Shown piece after piece: positions 29,860 to 45,242 of a DNA stretch of 64,000 nt. Position 1 is the first letter of the stretch. Each line of letters begins with the position of its first letter. A program made the position numbers and the translations under genes. The stretch lies in the sequence record NC_054910.1; one strand, given 5' to 3'. The DNA is from Escherichia phage EcNP1. The notes beneath the pieces were generated by a model. The model did not search any database and was not told the origin of the DNA. It was given only the letters and a program-made list of their open reading frames with translations.

Positions 29860-32844
29860 ATGGCTACTTTAAAACAAATACAATTTAAAAGAAGCAAAAC
29901 TGCAGGTCAACTTCCTGCCGCTTCAGTATTAGCCGAAGGTGAATTGGCTATTAATTTAAAAGATAAAACAATTTTCACAAAAGATGACTCAGGCAATGTT
30001 ATAGAATTAGGTTTAAAATATGGAGGAACAATTGATGGTTCTTTAACTGTTAATGGAAATATAATTGGAAATTTAACAGGTAACGCTGCAACTGCAACCA
30101 AATTAAAAACAGCACGAAAAATTAATGGTATATCCTTTGATGGGTCAAAAGATATCACGCTAACTCCATCCGACATAAATGTCAATAGCACAACGTTTAT
30201 AAAAAATAACGGCGAATTACCTGTTGATGCTAATTTAGATACGTATGGGCCTGTTGAAGAATATCTTGGAGTTTGGTCGAAAGCAACTTCAACCAACGCT
30301 CAACCAGCAAATAAATTTCCAGAAGACAATGCTGTAGGTGTGCTAGAAGTATTTGTGGCCGGTCAATTTGCTGGTACTCAGAGATATACAACTAGATACG
30401 GAAATGTTTATATTCGTTCCTTGACTGCTACATGGAACGGAGTAAATGGTCCGTGGAGTGTGTGGCGAAATATTCAATCTGGTACTCGTCCACTGTCAAC
30501 AACAATTGATCTTAATGATCTAGGAGGCGCTGAACACTTTGGTTTGTGGCGAAATAGTTCAAATTCCATTGCTACATTTGACAGAAATTTCCCAGAAGAG
30601 GGGTCGTCAGCTCAAGGTCTTTTGGAAGTATATGAAGGTGGAAACTATTCTCGTACACAAAGATATACAACCAGATTTGGTGTTGTTTATACTCGTTGTC
30701 TTGCTGCCGCGTGGGATTCTACTGCGCCTAAATGGGGACCGTGGCAACAAGTCGGTAATGTCACACCAGCGACTTTTTATGATGGAGATCTGAATGATTT
30801 TAAAACTCCTGGGTTATATAATATTTTAGGCACTGATGCCGTTATTAATTGTCCTACAGGCGAAGGTTTACCAGCCGTTATTGTTGGTTTGCTGGAAGTT
30901 AAACAGCGTGCTTCTGGTGGTGCTATTTTCCAAAAATTTACTACTGCCGGAACAGGTGCAACTACCCGCGATCGTATTTTTGAGCGCGCATATACCGGCG
31001 GTGTGTGGGGTGAATGGAACGAAGTATACACATCTTATTCTCTACCAATTACTTTGGGTATGGGCGGTATTAAATCTAACTTAGCAGAGTTAGACTGGCA
31101 AACATTTGATTTTGTTCCTGGTAGTATGTTTAGCGTTCCTTTGAACAAAATAAAGAACATGCCAGCTAATATGGATTGGGGTACGATTGACGGAAACTTA
31201 ATTATGTTTTCTGTTGGTCCTAGCGAGCACACCAGCACAGGACGTACTGTTCAGGTTTGGCGTGGTACTGTATCCCAGACAAACTACCGTTATTTTGTCG
31301 TTCGTGTATTCGGTAATTCAGGAAATAGAACTTGCACAGTTCGTCGCGTTGTTCTTGAAGATGGTCGCCACAAATGGACAGCGCAACAAGATTTTAATGG
31401 CGCAGTTAACTTCGGTGCTCCTACCAATTTTAACTCTACTGTTAACCTTAATAACACTACCACTTTTAAAACAGAAGTTAAATTTCGCTCATTGAATGCA
31501 TTCCGTATGTATGGCGGAAAATTTGGTACAATTTTCCGTAATGATGGAGAGAGTCTTTATATTCTTTCCACCGACGAAGATGACCAAGATGGAAACTTTA
31601 ATACAAATAGACCTTTCCGTTATGAATTGAGAACTGGCGATGTTACTTTAGGCGGTACTAGTGGTGCTAACGTTTTAAAATTAAAACGTGATTCTCTCAC
31701 CGCATTTTTTGGCGGTGATATTAACATGAAAGGCGTGCTGACTTTTGACGCCGGACGTTTAGGATCACGAGATTATTTTAAATTTAACCATTGGGGTGAT
31801 AGTAATAATGCGCGTGATAACATTATTCAGTTAGAAGACAGCAAAGGCGCTCATTTTTCCACTGAACGTACTTTAGCGACTGGTGCAATTAAGACTAAAT
31901 TTTTTGGTGAAATTGAATCCGATGGTAAATTGGTTATTAAACGTCCGGGTGATTCTATTGTATTATCAACAACTGCTAGTAATTCTTTGCATATTCGTGG
32001 TGACATAGACGGGACTGGTAACTGGTATATTGGTAAGGGTGGTGCTGATAATGGATTAGCGTTATATAGTTATGCTACTAATGCTGGTGTATACATTACA
32101 AACGCAGGAGATATCACGCTAAGTCCAAAAGGCGTCGAAATGGCTCATGTTAATAACGTTCGATTATATGTTCATGGTGAACGTTGGACTGCTAGTCAAC
32201 CAGGTGATTGGGGTAGTCAGTGGCAAGTGGAAGCGCCAATATTCGTCGATCATGGTTATGTTTCACAGGATTGTTATTATCCAATTATTAAAGGAAGAAG
32301 TGTAATCACCAATCAAGGGTTTGTAACTGCCGTCGATCTTGGTATTCGTCGTGTCAATAACAATTGGGGACAAGCAATTATTCGTGTTGGATCTGCGGAG
32401 GCATCGCCAGCGGCTGGACACCCTAACGCGGTATTTGAATTTCATTACGACGGTACTTTCTATTCTCCTGGTAATGGTAACTTTAACGATGTGTATATTC
32501 GTTCCGATGGTCGACTTAAGATCAATAAAGAAGAGTTAGAAAACGGAGCACTTGAAAAAGTTTGCCGACTGAAAGTTTATATTTACGATAAAGTTAAGTC
32601 TATTAAAGACCGTAGTGTTATTAAACGTGAAGTTGGTATTATTGCTCAGGACCTTGAAAAGGAATTACCGGAAGCTGTATCTAAAGTTGAAGTTGATGGA
32701 TCTGATGTTCTGACAATTTCTAACTCTGCTGTGAATGCTCTTTTAATTAAGGCTATTCAGGAAATGAGTGAAGAAATTAAAGAATTGAAAACGCCTTTCT
32801 TCACTAAAATTGCTCGCAAAATTAGTAATTATTTTAAATTCTAA
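29860..32844 (+). CDS. 37: long tail fibre distal subunit gp37 with C-terminal chaperone-like domain
   Basis: 994 aa; N-terminus [39 protein letters not shown] as gp36/gp37 family; C-terminal ~113 aa with SDGRLK motif. Confidence 0.92.
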
Positions 32845-32848
32845 CAAC

Positions 32849-32866
32849 AAGGGGCTTTGCCCCTTT
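32849..32866 (+). other. short GC hairpin between genes 37 and 38
   Basis: AGGGGC-UUU-GCCCCU followed by UUUGGAG and the gp38 ATG; weak terminator or RNA stability element. Confidence 0.4.
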
Positions 32867-32876
32867 GGAGAAAATT

Positions 32877-33677
32877 ATGGCAGTAGTTGGTGTTCCCGGC
32901 TGGATTGGAAGTTCATCCGTAAATGAAACAGGACAACGATGGATGAGTCAAGCGGCTGGTCAATTAAGATTGGGTGTTCCTTGCTGGATGAGCCAATTCG
33001 CCGGACGCTCAAGAGAGATTATTCATACCGTAACAGCAAACCATAACTTTAATGGTCAATGGTTCCGTGATAGGTGCTTTGAAGCTGGCGGTGCACCCAT
33101 TGTATTCAATATTGTTGGTGATATCGTTTCTTATTCTAAAGATGTGCCACTTTTCTTTATGTATGGGGATACGCCTAATGAATATGTTGTTCTTAATATT
33201 CATGGTGGTGTTCATATGTGGGGTCGTGGTGGTAATGGTGGATACACTCACTCAGGAGGCGACGGTAACGGTACACAAGGCGGTCATGTTATTCAAAATG
33301 ATATCGGTGGACGGCTTCGTATTTGGAACTACGGTGTTATAGCTGCTGGGGGTGGCGGCGGCGGTGGTATTGCATATCGTCCACACTCAGGGGCAAACTG
33401 GCAAGATATCGGTGGCGGCGGCGGTCGACCTTTCGGTGGTGCTGGCGGTGGCGGTTATTCCGGTGGTGCTGCTTCGTATGAAGGTCCGGGTGGTGGTTAT
33501 GACTATGGTAACGCACACTCCGGCGCAGGTGGTAATGCTGGTGCTGCTGGTCAGAATGCATGGTCTGACGGCGGTAAAGTTCTTAAAGTTGGTGTTGGTG
33601 GTGCGTCTGGTCATGCAGTGTTTGGGTCTTCTCCAACTTGGGGTGCTGTTGGAACAATTTACGGACCAAGAGTATAA
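32877..33677 (+). CDS. 38: T2-type receptor-binding adhesin gp38 (glycine-rich motifs)
   Basis: Track ORF starts at TTG; ATG at 32877 with GGAG RBS gives [13 protein letters not shown]; conserved N-domain then Gly-rich motifs ([28 protein letters not shown]) as in T2/T6 gp38. Confidence 0.9.
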
Positions 33678-33682
33678 TTTGA

Positions 33683-33690
33683 ATAAATAT
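33683..33690 (+). promoter_or_regulatory. late-promoter-like AATAAATA upstream of t
   Basis: 7/8 match to TATAAATA about 18 nt upstream of holin ATG. Confidence 0.35.
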
Positions 33691-33707
33691 CCTTAAAAGG
33701 AGGGTCT

Positions 33708-34364
33708 ATGGCAGCACCTAGAATATCATTTTCGCCCTCTGATATTCTGTTGGGTGTTCTAGATCGCTTGTTCAAAGATAATGCTACCGGGAAAGTTCTT
33801 GCTTCCCGGGTAGCTGTCGTAATTCTTTTGTTTATAATGGCGATTGTTTGGTATAGGGGAGATAGTTTCTTTGAGTACTATAAGCAATCAAAGTATGAAA
33901 CATACAGCGAAATTATTGAAAAGGAAAGAAATGCACGCTTTGAATCTGTCGCCCTGGAACAACTCCAGATAGTTCATATATCATCTGAGGCAGACTTTAG
34001 TGCGGTGTATTCTTTCCGCCCTAAAAACTTAAACTATTTTGTTGATATTATAGCATATGAAGGAAAATTACCTTCAACAATAAGTGAAAAATCACTTGGA
34101 GGATATCCTGTTGATAAAACTATGGATGAATATGCAGTTCATTTAAATGGACGTCATTATTATTCCGACTCAAAATTTGCTTTTTTACCAACTAAAAAGC
34201 CTACTCCCGAAATAAATTACATGTACAGTTGTCCATATTTCAATTTGGATAATATCTATGCTGGAACAATAACCATGTACTGGTATAGAAATGATCATAT
34301 AAGTAATGACCGCCTTGAATCAATATGTTCTCAGGCGGCCAGAATATTAGGAAGGGCTAAATAA
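33708..34364 (+). CDS. t: holin T
   Basis: 218 aa, MAAPRISFSPSDILLGVLDRLFKDNATGKVLASRVAVVILLFIMAIVWYRGDSF; T4 holin length and single TM. Confidence 0.95.
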   Translation: MAAPRISFSPSDILLGVLDRLFKDNATGKVLASRVAVVILLFIMAIVWYRGDSFFEYYKQSKYETYSEIIEKERNARFESVALEQLQIVHISSEADFSAVYSFRPKNLNYFVDIIAYEGKLPSTISEKSLGGYPVDKTMDEYAVHLNGRHYYSDSKFAFLPTKKPTPEINYMYSCPYFNLDNIYAGTITMYWYRNDHISNDRLESICSQAARILGRAK

Positions 34365-43064: not shown

Positions 43065-45242
43065 TTAGGCCGCAAGGGCCTTCATAGTTTTAGCGATTTG
43101 GGAAACTTCATCATCACTTAAAGAATTGCGATAACCGATGAAGTCGGAAACAATACGGAATTTCTTGGTAAACTCAGCAACCATTTTATCACTGTTTTTT
43201 GAAGCATTATTTGATAATACATCAAAAAGATTAGTTACCGTCCAGATGTCATGACCGATGGTATCTTTTCCACCGTTGAAATATACACCCTGTAATGAAC
43301 TAACCATATTAGCGAGTCGTGTATATTCTTCGGAAACTTCATCTACACTGAAGTACTTCATCATAAAATCTAACTCAGGATACTTGATAATTTTATCAAT
43401 ATATCGTTTAGCTGAACTTGAATAACCTACATACTTATCATAATCTACATCATCAAAAGCATCTACATATAAATCACGCAAAGTTTCAAAAATACATTGA
43501 CACTGACCAAGTTCTTTTACCTTTTTCTGTAAAAGTGGACGAATAACATAAAATTCATTAATGCCAATAAGATTAGCCATACGAGTCAAAATACTCGTAG
43601 ATGGATGACAAAGCGATGTAGTACCATCCATAGAGAAAATATCAGAACGATGCATGTATGCTACATAACCAGTAATTTCATCTGCTTCTGATGTGAGCGT
43701 AAACAATTCCTCTTTTTCCCAGCGCCCGTCTTTAATTTCAAACTTAAATGCAGTAGCAGTTTTAGGACGAGGAGCTGTACTTTTTACTGCCTTTGGAATA
43801 TAACTTTTAACTAAAGCTTCAATTTCTGACAGATAATGAATGTTAACTTCATCACTTTCAAACATTGCGATAATATCAGGAAGCAAATCAATCTGCGATT
43901 CTACTTCCGGATTAATAAACAGAAGACGCTCATTGTGATGAATATTCAAAGTGTTATTAAATTCACTATCATCTAATGCACGTGCTAATCCACGGACAAT
44001 ATTAACACGATTTTTAATATTATCAATGACGATATTAATTTTTGTTGTGTTAATACCAAACAGACGATAACTTGATGCAACGGCTGAAGTTTCATGGCTT
44101 TGCTTAATGCGTTTCAGTCGAGGGTCAAGATTTACTTCATACACAACCCCTGCATTGCATAACTTACTATCAGGCTCAAACATGCTTTGCATCTTCTTAT
44201 ATGACAGATTTTTAGTCGTGAATTTGACCGAATTACTAATCATATAATCTCGAGCAGAATATCCCATCTTCATCAATTCACGGTATGTATGACGAGGAGA
44301 TGTAGATTCTTTAAATCGTTTTACATCTTCATTGAATGCCTTCTCACTAAGCTCTTTAACACGCTCAATAATATTTTTACGAGTACGATCATCTAGTGAA
44401 AGAGCCTCACGCGATGGAGCAATATCAAGTGAACCCATTGGAAACTTAATATAATTCACTTCATTGCGAATGCTTAACCAGTTACGGTCTCTAATAACAC
44501 CATCGATAGGATAAACAATACCGCCATAGATAGCGTACAATCCACCACGATCTGGCCAGTATCTTTCTGGATTTACACCGTAATAGTCATCAAAATCCGG
44601 AAAATAATCAATTTCGCGGTCAAGACCATTAATGATAGCCAAATCTTTGAATGGTCGCATGATATAAGAAACTTCATAAGCAAAGTTTCTAAAGTCTTTT
44701 TCTTCAACTGGAACTACGATTTCAATACCAGTTTTATCATCTGGATCCATTTCTTTTACGAATGTAGGTTTAATCTGCGGACCATCACCATCCATGTAAG
44801 CTACATAACCGCGAATTTCACCTTTATGGTACGAAGTAATACTAAACGTATCAGTATAACTAAACGGAGATTTAGAACCTAAACCAAATCCACCAATGAA
44901 ATCGTTAGATTCAGCCTTAGATGAACTGAAGTATGAATTATACAACCCAGGAGAATTATCATCACCCTGAATATCAAAATCGCTCATACCCGGACCAAAA
45001 TCTCGGCAAACAAATCGCGGATCTAATCGTCCTGGAACTTGAATGATAAATTTTTCAGGATTTCCATTGAGAGCATGGGCATCAATCATGTTGGTAATCA
45101 ATTCACGTACTACTGCGCGAATCTTGTTTGTGTACAAATCAGATGATAGAATTTTAAATACTTTAGGAGATGCTGTGATGCTAAATGCTTTTGATTTAGA
45201 ACCATTACCAAGAATTGTTTCTTTTTCAGTGGTGATAATCAT
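43065..45242 (-). CDS. rIIA: rIIA rapid-lysis/exclusion protein
   Basis: 725 aa, [40 protein letters not shown]; matches T4 rIIA. Confidence 0.95.

What the first reader, a model, noticed from the sequence alone, without database searches (positions are those of the whole stretch)
33230..33660. gp38 adhesin with glycine-rich motifs built on repetitive GGN codon runs
gp38 is the T2/T6-type tip adhesin, not T4-type, with a conserved N-domain then blocks such as [51 protein letters not shown] and GPGGGYDYG separating short variable segments. The DNA has long near-identical GGT/GGC repeats that can drive recombinational shuffling of host range. Several spurious out-of-frame ORFs in the track (33009-33696) are by-products of this repetitiveness.
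Basis: partly seen in the sequence, partly recalled or inferred. Interest (0 to 1): 0.45.

Follow-up and report, generated by a model that had tools for sequence, protein, structure and literature searches.

The report
Ox2-type gp38 tail-fibre tip adhesin
This is the well-known glycine-rich receptor-binding protein (gp38) that caps the long tail fibre of a T2/T6-like coliphage, almost identical to the phage Ox2 version that binds OmpA, so it is ordinary, and its glycine codon runs look like a structural requirement, not long DNA repeats.

Summary
The gene at 32877-33677 (+, 266 aa) is an adhesin-type gp38. It reaches Pfam GP38 and Gp38_N. By sequence and predicted fold it matches only the solved PP01 and S16 gp38 structures. 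It has no similarity to T4 gp38. It is 100% identical in DNA to phage vB_EcoM_Nami and 97% identical in protein to Ox2 gp38, so OmpA is the inferred receptor.

All four quoted peptide blocks are present, and glycine makes up 36% of residues 116-266. The "long near-identical GGT/GGC repeats" are overstated:
- The longest GGN runs are 7 and 5 codons.
- The only exact internal repeat is 15 nt.
- Third codon positions differ freely between T and C among alleles.
- Identical DNA shared with alleles carrying other variable segments is only 11-14 nt inside the glycine motifs.

Among 90 representative gp38 proteins, the four hypervariable segments travel as one linked set. This gene is a natural chimera, with a T6-like N-terminal half and an Ox2-like specificity domain. 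Its crossovers lie in 74-nt and 83-nt tracts flanking the whole cassette.

The out-of-frame ORFs are reproduced by synonymous shuffles, so they are artefacts of composition. Everything here is already known, and interest is low.

The parts
32877..33677 (+). Gene 38: adhesin-type gp38, 266 aa, with stop codon TAA at 33675-33677. The ATG at 32877 sits 8 nt after GGAG. The TTG at 32865 listed by the ORF tool is an upstream extension.
   Evidence: 100% nt identity to vB_EcoM_Nami; 257/266 aa identical to Ox2 gp38, which is also 266 aa.
32877..33017 (+). N-terminal attachment domain (aa 1-47). It contains the three invariant tryptophans W9, W22 and W37 and an internal pseudo-repeat (GVPGW / [11 protein letters not shown] / [14 protein letters not shown]).
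   Evidence: Pfam Gp38_N covers aa 1-42. Invariant columns are listed. In S16 gp38, three such tryptophans plug three equivalent pockets of trimeric gp37 (PMC6851490).
33018..33221 (+). Central beta-helix domain (aa 48-115). At the DNA level it is T6-like (96.3%) rather than Ox2-like (84.7%).
   Evidence: The AF2 model has strands at 48-115 with pLDDT above 90. Identities are and the mosaic pattern.
33222..33677 (+). C-terminal specificity domain (aa 116-266), made of glycine-rich motifs and hypervariable segments. My own delimitation from conservation is: GRM1 116-122, HVS1 123-134, GRM2 135-164, HVS2 165-178, GRM3 179-190, HVS3 191-215, GRM4 216-225, HVS4 226-241, GRM5 plus C-terminus 242-266.
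   Evidence: The conservation profile over 90 proteins is. The region has pLDDT of about 88-97. Foldseek matches PP01 gp38 RBD 9v85 (E 1.9e-26, TM 0.73/0.87) and S16 6f45_D (E 1e-20).
33240..33266 (+). Predicted receptor loop A (aa 122-130, GYTHSGGDG), mapped from PP01 loop-A.
   Evidence: Alignment A2. PP01 loop definitions are from PMC12892980.
33375..33404 (+). Predicted receptor loop B (aa 167-176, [10 protein letters not shown]). It contains N174, where Ox2 has K.
33447..33458 (+). Predicted receptor loop C (aa 191-194, GGGY). It contains G193, where Ox2 has R.
33501..33515 (+). Predicted receptor loop D (aa 209-213, DYGNA).
33561..33581 (+). Predicted receptor loop E (aa 229-235, WSDGGKV).
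33348..33368 (+). Longest GGN run: 7 glycine codons (GGGGGTGGCGGCGGCGGTGGT, aa 158-164). It corresponds to the long polyglycine-II helix 3 of S16 gp38.
   Evidence: The S16 helix 3 sequence 151-GGGGGGGG-158 is given in PMC6851490.
33411..33425 (+). Second GGN run: 5 glycine codons (aa 179-183, the start of GGGGGRPFG). It is an exact 15-nt repeat of 33351-33365.
33165..33238 (+). 5' crossover interval: a 74-nt tract identical in the window, Ox2 and T6. It encodes [25 protein letters not shown], the end of the beta-helix running into GRM1. The last T6-type site is 33164 and the first Ox2-type site is 33239.
33666..33748 (+). 3' crossover interval: an 83-nt tract identical in all three phages. 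It covers the last gp38 codons, the stop, the intergenic region and the 5' end of gene t.
29860..32844 (+). Gene 37: distal long-tail-fibre subunit, 994 aa. It has a C-terminal Peptidase_S74 intramolecular chaperone domain (aa 882-940), with the SDGRLK motif at aa 882 (nt 32503). The block 32200-32553 is Ox2-like (98.6%, against 77.5% to T6).
33708..34364 (+). Gene t: holin, 218 aa. This is the conserved downstream neighbour.
   Evidence: Pfam Phage_holin_T at 2.2e-117.

Best explanation
The gene encodes the monomeric receptor-recognising adhesin gp38 that caps the trimeric gp37 tip of the long tail fibre in a Tequatrovirus. The closest record is vB_EcoM_Nami.

Mechanism, inferred from the solved S16 and PP01 homologues:
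- The N-terminal three-helix bundle inserts W9, W22 and W37 into three equivalent pockets on the gp37 trimer. This presumably follows self-cleavage of gp37's C-terminal S74 chaperone domain.
- A central beta-helix carries two long excursions. Their glycine-rich motifs fold into polyglycine-II helices packed as a three-layer sandwich, which only glycine can fit sterically.
- The hypervariable segments form the distal loops that contact the surface loops of an outer-membrane protein.

The specificity domain is 98% identical in protein (155/158 residues, aa 109-266) to that of phage Ox2, so the receptor is most probably OmpA.

The GGN codon runs are therefore mainly a consequence of protein-structural constraint.

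Host-range change at this locus happens in two ways. One is point changes in the loops. The other is homologous exchange of the whole specificity cassette through conserved flanks. This allele shows that second route: it joins a T6-like N-terminal half to an Ox2-like cassette.
For: Shown here:
- Family membership. Pfam GP38 scores 223.5 bits against a cutoff of 25, and Gp38_N scores 69.1 bits. Sequence search of solved structures finds 9v85 at 2.1e-61 and 6f45_D at 1.7e-43.
- Fold. The AF2 model has mean pLDDT 86.7 and pTM 0.79. Its only significant PDB neighbours are those two gp38 structures.
- Not T4-type. BLASTP against T4 gp38 gives E=3.5. T4 gp37 has Collar and fibre-repeat domains, whereas this gp37 has Peptidase_S74.
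- Closest alleles. The gene is 100% nt identical to Nami. It is 257/266 aa identical to Ox2, and only N174K, G193R and A257V differ in aa 109-266, alongside 8 synonymous changes.
- Conservation. There are 40 invariant columns across 90 proteins, mostly Gly, and entropy peaks at residues 123-134, 165-178, 191-215 and 226-241.
- Mosaic structure. Informative sites run 32200-32553 Ox2-type, 32562-33164 T6-type and 33239-33665 Ox2-type. The mid-domain is 96.3% identical to T6 and 84.7% to Ox2.
- Linkage. The N-terminal attachment domain reassorts freely with HVS sets (16-32 four-type incompatibilities), while HVS pairs show 0.

From the literature:
- The PGII sandwich and the tryptophan attachment mode (PMC6851490).
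- The PP01 structure and its loops A-E (PMC12892980).
- Ox2 and K3 bind OmpA loops (PMC12032242).
- The 5-GRM / 4-HVS scheme (PMC3157838).
Against: - No adsorption data exist for this phage in the sources I could search. The only paper mentioning vB_EcoM_Nami does so once.
- The two specificity-domain differences from Ox2 (N174, G193) lie in predicted receptor loops B and C. Single HVS substitutions can switch porin, for example Q206L switching OmpF to OmpW (bioRxiv 10.64898/2026.04.02.716166). OmpA is therefore inferred, not shown.
- Trojet et al. report that Ox2 needs more than one host component (PMC3157838).
- The AF2 N-terminal domain is of low confidence: pLDDT is below 50 for residues 1-17 and 66-67 on average for residues 21-40. 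This is expected for a domain that folds onto gp37.
- The direction of the recombination events cannot be told from three sequences.
Confidence: 0.93

Rival explanations
1. The GGN codon runs are maintained as recombination hotspots. On this view the conserved glycine-motif DNA lets individual hypervariable segments be shuffled between alleles to create new host ranges. This is the first reader's reading, and it follows the published hypothesis cited in PMC12032242.
For: - The glycine motifs are the only conserved sequence between the HVSs.
- The 5' crossover tract of this allele ends in GRM1.
- In one engineered cross (CM8 x EV240), only the part of gp38 from HVS2 onward was exchanged. This implies a crossover inside the specificity domain (bioRxiv 10.64898/2026.04.02.716166).
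- Some HVS1 and HVS4 types are shared across different HVS2/HVS3 types.
Against: - Third positions of invariant GRM glycine codons are T/C-randomised among 22 non-redundant alleles. Mean pairwise identity is 0.43, close to the 0.39 seen at other four-fold codons in the same motifs. There is therefore no sign of selection for DNA identity.
- The longest exact matches to alleles with different HVS sets are 11-14 nt within GRM1-5, against up to 62 nt in the N-terminal half.
- There are 0 four-type incompatibilities between any pair of HVSs in 90 representative proteins.
- Trojet et al. recovered no exchange between GRM1 and GRM5 among 14 chimeras (PMC3157838).
- Glycine is independently required by the PGII fold (PMC6851490).
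Confidence: 0.2
2. One or more of the out-of-frame ORFs between 33009 and 33696 (for example 33352-33696 +, 114 aa) is a real overlapping gene.
For: The ORFs exist and are long for an AT-rich phage: up to 111 stop-free codons in frame +1.
Against: - In 2000 synonymous-codon shuffles that keep the gp38 protein and codon usage, open stretches are as long or longer. Frame +1 is 111 observed against 119.7 +/- 35.6, frame -0 is 96 against 120.4, and frame -2 is 81 against 81.4.
- Total alternative-frame stops are 60 observed against 58.1 +/- 4.0.
- No such gene is annotated in Nami, T6 or PP01.
- The translations are low-complexity.
Confidence: 0.02
3. It is a T4-type gp38, a non-structural assembly chaperone for gp37.
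For: Only the gene name and its position between gene 37 and gene t, which are shared with T4.
Against: - There is no sequence similarity to T4 gp38 (E=3.5).
- T4 gp38 matches no Pfam family, while this protein matches the GP38 adhesin family.
- The fold matches the virion-tip adhesins.
- The gp37 here carries its own S74 intramolecular chaperone.
Confidence: 0.01

Closest known systems
Phage Ox2 gp38 (GenBank X05675; receptor-recognising protein, OmpA-specific)
   Same: - Same length (266 aa) and 257/266 residues identical.
- The specificity-domain DNA (33200-33677) is 97.7% identical.
- All HVSs are of the same type.
- Same gene order: 37-38-t.
   Different: - The N-terminal half is only 87.6% identical in nt and is T6-like instead. 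It carries six substitutions: V52L, T53G, N55D, G72S, V80T and I83L.
- N174K and G193R fall in predicted loops B and C, and A257V lies near the C-terminus.
- At positions 174 and 193 the window carries the residues also seen in FL08 and AV119.
Phage T6 gp38 (Tsx-specific adhesin)
   Same: The 3' end of gene 37, the intergenic region and the gp38 N-terminal half are 97-98% identical in nt. The attachment domain protein is identical.
   Different: The specificity domain is only 57.4% identical in nt, with a different HVS set. T6 binds Tsx (PMC12032242, PMC3157838).
Type-1 OmpA-binding Gp38 of phages FL08 and AV119 (PMC12032242)
   Same: 77-78% identical, with near-identical HVS1-4 strings (for example IAYRVHSGANW and YSGGAASY).
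   Different: The N-terminal attachment-domain type is different (MAVTG--PWVG...). There are several loop substitutions.
Solved gp38 structures: S16 gp37-gp38 tip complex (6F45) and PP01 gp38 receptor-binding domain (9V85)
   Same: - Same three-domain plan.
- The predicted fold superposes with TM 0.73-0.87.
- Same invariant tryptophans and glycine motifs.
   Different: - 41-58% identity over the structural alignments.
- Both solved proteins bind OmpC.
- The loops differ in length and sequence.
T4 gp38 (tail fibre assembly chaperone)
   Same: Name and genomic position only.
   Different: It is an unrelated sequence of 183 aa and is not a virion component (PMC6851490).

Membership tests
Adhesin-type gp38 (Pfam PF05268 GP38 + PF21721 Gp38_N; T2/T6/Ox2/S16 type) | Sequence match to the family profiles above the curated cutoffs | tested here: met
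   GP38 scores 223.5 bits (cutoff 25) over aa 47-266, matching profile positions 1-218 of 218. Gp38_N scores 69.1 bits (cutoff 25).
Adhesin-type gp38 (Pfam PF05268 GP38 + PF21721 Gp38_N; T2/T6/Ox2/S16 type) | Three conserved tryptophans in the N-terminal helical attachment domain | tested here: met
   W9, W22 and W37 are invariant in alignment A2. Their role is defined in the S16 structure (PMC6851490).
Adhesin-type gp38 (Pfam PF05268 GP38 + PF21721 Gp38_N; T2/T6/Ox2/S16 type) | C-terminal domain of conserved glycine-rich motifs alternating with hypervariable segments | tested here: met
   The conservation profile over 90 proteins shows invariant Gly columns at 116-121, 135-136, 158-163, 179-183, 187, 190, 205, 216-225 and 245. 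Entropy peaks lie between them.
Adhesin-type gp38 (Pfam PF05268 GP38 + PF21721 Gp38_N; T2/T6/Ox2/S16 type) | Beta-helix plus polyglycine-II sandwich fold | tested here: met
   The AF2 model has pLDDT 86.7. Foldseek matches 9v85_C (E 1.9e-26, TM 0.73/0.87, rmsd 2.6) and 6f45_D (E 1e-20), with no other significant hit. This rests on a predicted structure, not a solved one.
Adhesin-type gp38 (Pfam PF05268 GP38 + PF21721 Gp38_N; T2/T6/Ox2/S16 type) | Encoded directly downstream of a gp37 that lacks the T4-type receptor-binding tip | tested here: met
   The gene order is 37-38-t. This gp37 ends in Peptidase_S74, whereas T4 gp37 has Collar and fibre-repeat domains.
Adhesin-type gp38 (Pfam PF05268 GP38 + PF21721 Gp38_N; T2/T6/Ox2/S16 type) | Present in the virion as a monomer at the fibre tip, and determines the receptor | not testable with these tools
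   Inferred from homologues (PMC6851490, PMC12892980, PMC3157838).
OmpA-specific gp38 (Ox2 / type-1 group) | HVS1-4 of the Ox2 / FL08 / AV119 type | tested here: met
   There are 3 aa differences from Ox2 in aa 109-266. The HVS types are shared with the FL08 and AV119 representatives, pattern xAAAAAA.
OmpA-specific gp38 (Ox2 / type-1 group) | Infection depends on OmpA | not testable with these tools
   No receptor data were found for vB_EcoM_Nami.
T4-type gp38 (assembly chaperone) | Sequence similarity to T4 gp38 | tested here: not met
   BLASTP gives best E=3.5 over 7 residues.

The most novel reading that the evidence does not exclude
The Nami-type allele is a recent natural cassette swap that placed an OmpA-type (Ox2-like) specificity domain onto a T6-like gp38 N-terminal half. 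It sits beside a second Ox2-like block in the gp37 tip. The 74-nt tract ending in GRM1 would then be a preferred crossover point for whole-cassette host-range exchange in Tequatroviruses. In addition, N174 and G193 in loops B and C could give it a different OmpA-variant range from laboratory Ox2.
Probability: 0.5. Interest if true: 0.2.

Novelty: already known. Interest (0 to 1): 0.1.

Why it matters
gp38 is the main host-range determinant of most T-even phages. Identifying the allele predicts the receptor (here OmpA), which is useful for designing phage cocktails and engineering host range.

This instance adds no new biology. The sequence is already in GenBank, the family has two solved structures, and the GRM/HVS architecture has been described since the late 1980s.

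The small added value is quantitative. On the data gathered here, the glycine codon runs do not behave as long recombinogenic repeats. Natural exchange is seen at the level of the whole specificity cassette and of the attachment domain, not of single hypervariable segments.

Tried and rejected
- **Long DNA repeats.** The repeat finder and Tandem Repeats Finder gave only a 15-nt exact pair and a marginal 22-nt array. I rejected 'long near-identical repeats'.
- **Overlapping genes.** The alternative-frame ORFs are fully reproduced by synonymous shuffles. Rejected.
- **Selection for DNA identity at glycine motifs.** Third-position identity is 0.43, as expected from T/C codon bias. Rejected.
- **HVS reassortment.** A four-type test on 90 proteins found none between HVS pairs. 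The test is crude: it uses single-linkage types at 70% identity on database representatives chosen by similarity to the query.
- **T4-type gp38.** Rejected.
- **Hairpin between genes 37 and 38 (32848-32864).** The fold is no better than shuffles (z -1.4), and the terminator scan did not call it.
- **tRNA and Rfam scans of the window.** Nothing found.
- **Literature on vB_EcoM_Nami.** One incidental mention only.
- **Ox2 host-range mutants.** I did not verify the published Ox2 host-range mutant positions (Drexler 1989 and 1991). Those papers are not in the searchable library, so I make no claim from them.

Full report
**What is there**

The finding lies in an ORF at 32877-33677 on the + strand. 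It encodes 266 aa and starts at an ATG 8 nt after GGAG. The TTG at 32865 listed by the ORF tool is merely an in-frame upstream extension.

Glycine accounts for 69 of 266 residues overall and for 55 of 151 (36%) in residues 116-266. Of the glycine codons, 57 of 69 are GGT or GGC.

Runs of at least five consecutive GGN codons occur at only two places in the whole 64-kb window, and both are in this gene. None appeared in 100 dinucleotide-preserving shuffles. Local GC rises to 0.58-0.60 against roughly 0.35 around it.

The DNA-level repetition is modest:
- GGN runs are 7, 5, 4 and 3 codons long.
- The only exact direct repeat is the 15-mer GGTGGCGGCGGCGGT at 33351 and 33411, with a third copy at 87% identity.
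- Tandem Repeats Finder reports only a 22-nt period-6 array at the minimum score.

**Identity**

- The protein reaches Pfam GP38 (3.9e-66, full profile length) and Gp38_N (3.2e-19).
- By sequence it matches two solved structures: the PP01 gp38 receptor-binding domain 9V85 (2.1e-61) and chain D of the S16 gp37-gp38 tip complex 6F45 (1.7e-43).
- An AlphaFold2 model built on a 90-sequence alignment has mean pLDDT 86.7 and pTM 0.79. Only the N-terminal ~40 residues are poorly defined.
- Foldseek against the PDB finds those same two gp38 structures (E 1.9e-26 and 1e-20; TM 0.73-0.87) and nothing else significant.
BLASTP against T4 gp38 gives E=3.5, and T4 gp38 matches no Pfam family.
- The neighbours fit the T2 type. 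The upstream gp37 (29860-32844, 994 aa) ends in a Peptidase_S74 intramolecular chaperone domain, with SDGRLK at aa 882, rather than T4's Collar and fibre-repeat tip. The downstream gene is holin t.

**Source and closest alleles**

The gene is 100% identical in DNA to Escherichia phage vB_EcoM_Nami (MZ502380; Tequatrovirus). The surrounding 18.8 kb is 99.8% identical to that record.

The protein is 257/266 identical to phage Ox2 gp38 (X05675), which has the same length. Ox2 uses OmpA (PMC12032242), although Trojet et al. note it needs more than one host component (PMC3157838). The next closest characterised proteins are the type-1 OmpA binders of FL08 and AV119, at 77-78% identity with near-identical variable segments (PMC12032242). 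I therefore infer OmpA as the receptor. This is an inference, not a result.

**Anatomy**

Across 90 representative gp38 proteins there are 40 invariant columns, mostly glycines. Variability peaks sharply at residues 123-134, 165-178, 191-215 and 226-241. This reproduces the published scheme of five glycine-rich motifs (GRMs) and four hypervariable segments (HVSs) (PMC3157838).

I mapped the five receptor loops defined in the PP01 crystal structure (PMC12892980) onto this protein. They fall at aa 122-130, 167-176, 191-194, 209-213 and 229-235.

Within aa 109-266 the protein differs from Ox2 only at N174K (loop B), G193R (loop C) and A257V, alongside 8 synonymous changes. At positions 174 and 193 the window carries the residues also seen in FL08 and AV119.

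**Why the glycine runs exist**

In the S16 structure the glycine-rich motifs form ten polyglycine-II helices packed into a three-layer sandwich. One of them is a GGGGGGGG helix that corresponds to this gene's 7-codon run. The variable segments form the distal loops (PMC6851490). Glycine is therefore demanded by the fold.

I tested whether the DNA itself is conserved beyond that requirement:
- Among 22 non-redundant alleles, third positions of invariant GRM glycine codons have a mean pairwise identity of only 0.43. This is about what T/C codon bias gives, and it is close to the 0.39 seen at other four-fold codons in the same motifs.
- Perfectly identical tracts shared with alleles carrying other HVS sets are 11-14 nt inside the GRMs. 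In the N-terminal half they reach up to 62 nt.

**Recombination**

No four-type incompatibility appears between any pair of HVSs. The N-terminal attachment domain, by contrast, shows 16-32 incompatibilities against the HVSs. The variable segments therefore behave as one linked cassette in this sample, and the attachment domain is what reassorts.

This agrees with Trojet et al., who found no exchange between GRM1 and GRM5 among 14 selected chimeras (PMC3157838). A 2026 preprint does report one engineered recombinant exchanged only from HVS2 onward, so internal crossovers are possible.

This gene itself is a mosaic. In a three-way alignment with Ox2 and T6, the informative sites run as follows:

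| Window interval | Type | Content |
|---|---|---|
| 32200-32553 | Ox2-type | gp37 tip; 98.6% identical to Ox2, 77.5% to T6 |
| 32562-33164 | T6-type | gp37 S74 end, intergenic region, gp38 N-terminal half; 97-98% to T6, 88-93% to Ox2 |
| 33239-33665 | Ox2-type | specificity domain; 97.7% to Ox2, 57.4% to T6 |

A database search with the 216-nt mid-domain confirms the pattern, at 96.3% identity to T6 and 84.7% to Ox2.

The crossover intervals are tracts identical in all three phages:
- 33165-33238 (74 nt) is mostly the end of the beta-helix domain and runs into GRM1.
- 33666-33748 (83 nt) spans the gene end and the start of gene t.

Real exchange here is thus of the whole specificity cassette through conserved flanks of ordinary length. 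It does not go through the GGN runs.

**Out-of-frame ORFs**

Seven ORFs of 40 aa or more in other frames lie between 33009 and 33696. In the specificity-domain DNA (codons 116-266), stop density in alternative frames drops to 0.007-0.02 in three frames, against about 0.04-0.13 in gp37.

I ran 2000 shuffles that permute synonymous codons while keeping the protein and codon usage. They give open stretches as long or longer: frame +1 is 111 observed against 119.7 +/- 35.6. Total stop counts are the same, at 60 against 58.1 +/- 4.0. The ORFs are by-products of Gly/Ala-rich composition.

**Verdict**

The identification as a T2/T6-type adhesin is correct. More precisely, it is an Ox2-type, probably OmpA-binding allele on a T6-like N-terminal half. 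The "GGN repeats drive shuffling" mechanism is a known hypothesis that my tests do not support for this gene. Nothing here is new: the sequence, family, fold and modular evolution are all published. Interest is low.

Noticed in passing
window 32889-33014 (gp38 aa 5-46): The N-terminal attachment domain contains internal direct repeats at the DNA and protein level. These are 32940-32969 against 32985-33014 ([10 protein letters not shown] / [10 protein letters not shown]) and 32889-32905 against 32973-32989 (GVPGWI / GVPCWM). They line up with the three invariant tryptophans W9, W22 and W37. In S16 gp38 those tryptophans plug three symmetry-equivalent pockets of the gp37 trimer, so this looks like a pseudo-threefold repeat matching a monomer to a trimer.
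   Followed up: partly
window 32200-32553 (gp37 aa 781-898): A second Ox2-like block (98.6% to Ox2, 77.5% to T6) sits in the mature tip of gp37, just upstream of and running into the S74 chaperone domain. It is separated from the Ox2-like gp38 specificity domain by a T6-like stretch. The distal fibre locus is therefore a three-block mosaic.
   Followed up: partly
window 32503-32680 (gp37 aa 882-940): gp37 carries a Peptidase_S74 intramolecular chaperone domain beginning at the SDGRLK motif (aa 882). This implies self-cleavage of about 113 C-terminal residues before gp38 can dock. T4 gp37 lacks this domain.
   Followed up: partly
window 32848-32864: A GC-rich hairpin (AAGGGGC-TTT-GCCCCTT) lies between the gene 37 stop codon and the gene 38 ribosome-binding site. 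Its folding energy is not better than shuffles (z -1.4), and it is not called as a terminator.
   Followed up: yes
window ~43065-43071: The window is 99.8% identical to phage vB_EcoM_Nami over 18.8 kb (22 mismatches, 2 gaps). It continues past the end of that linear GenBank record. It therefore comes from a differently opened or circularly permuted copy of a near-identical genome.
   Followed up: partly
window 33649-33678: A sigma-70-like promoter match (TTGGAA-18-TATAAT, 10 of 12) overlaps the end of gene 38 just upstream of holin gene t. The region has fewer such matches than shuffles (2 against 5.9), so this is probably chance.
   Followed up: no
L023-L030 (IMG/VR loci), about 60 nt upstream of position 1501: Several distant gp38 homologues begin with GTG or TTG at the conserved start. 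My automatic ATG search extended them about 20 aa upstream (MVRGHPHQFRIF...), which is probably an artefact. These rows were used only in the DNA comparisons.
   Followed up: no
window 1-64000: No tRNA genes and no Rfam family at gathering threshold anywhere in the 64 kb window.
   Followed up: yes
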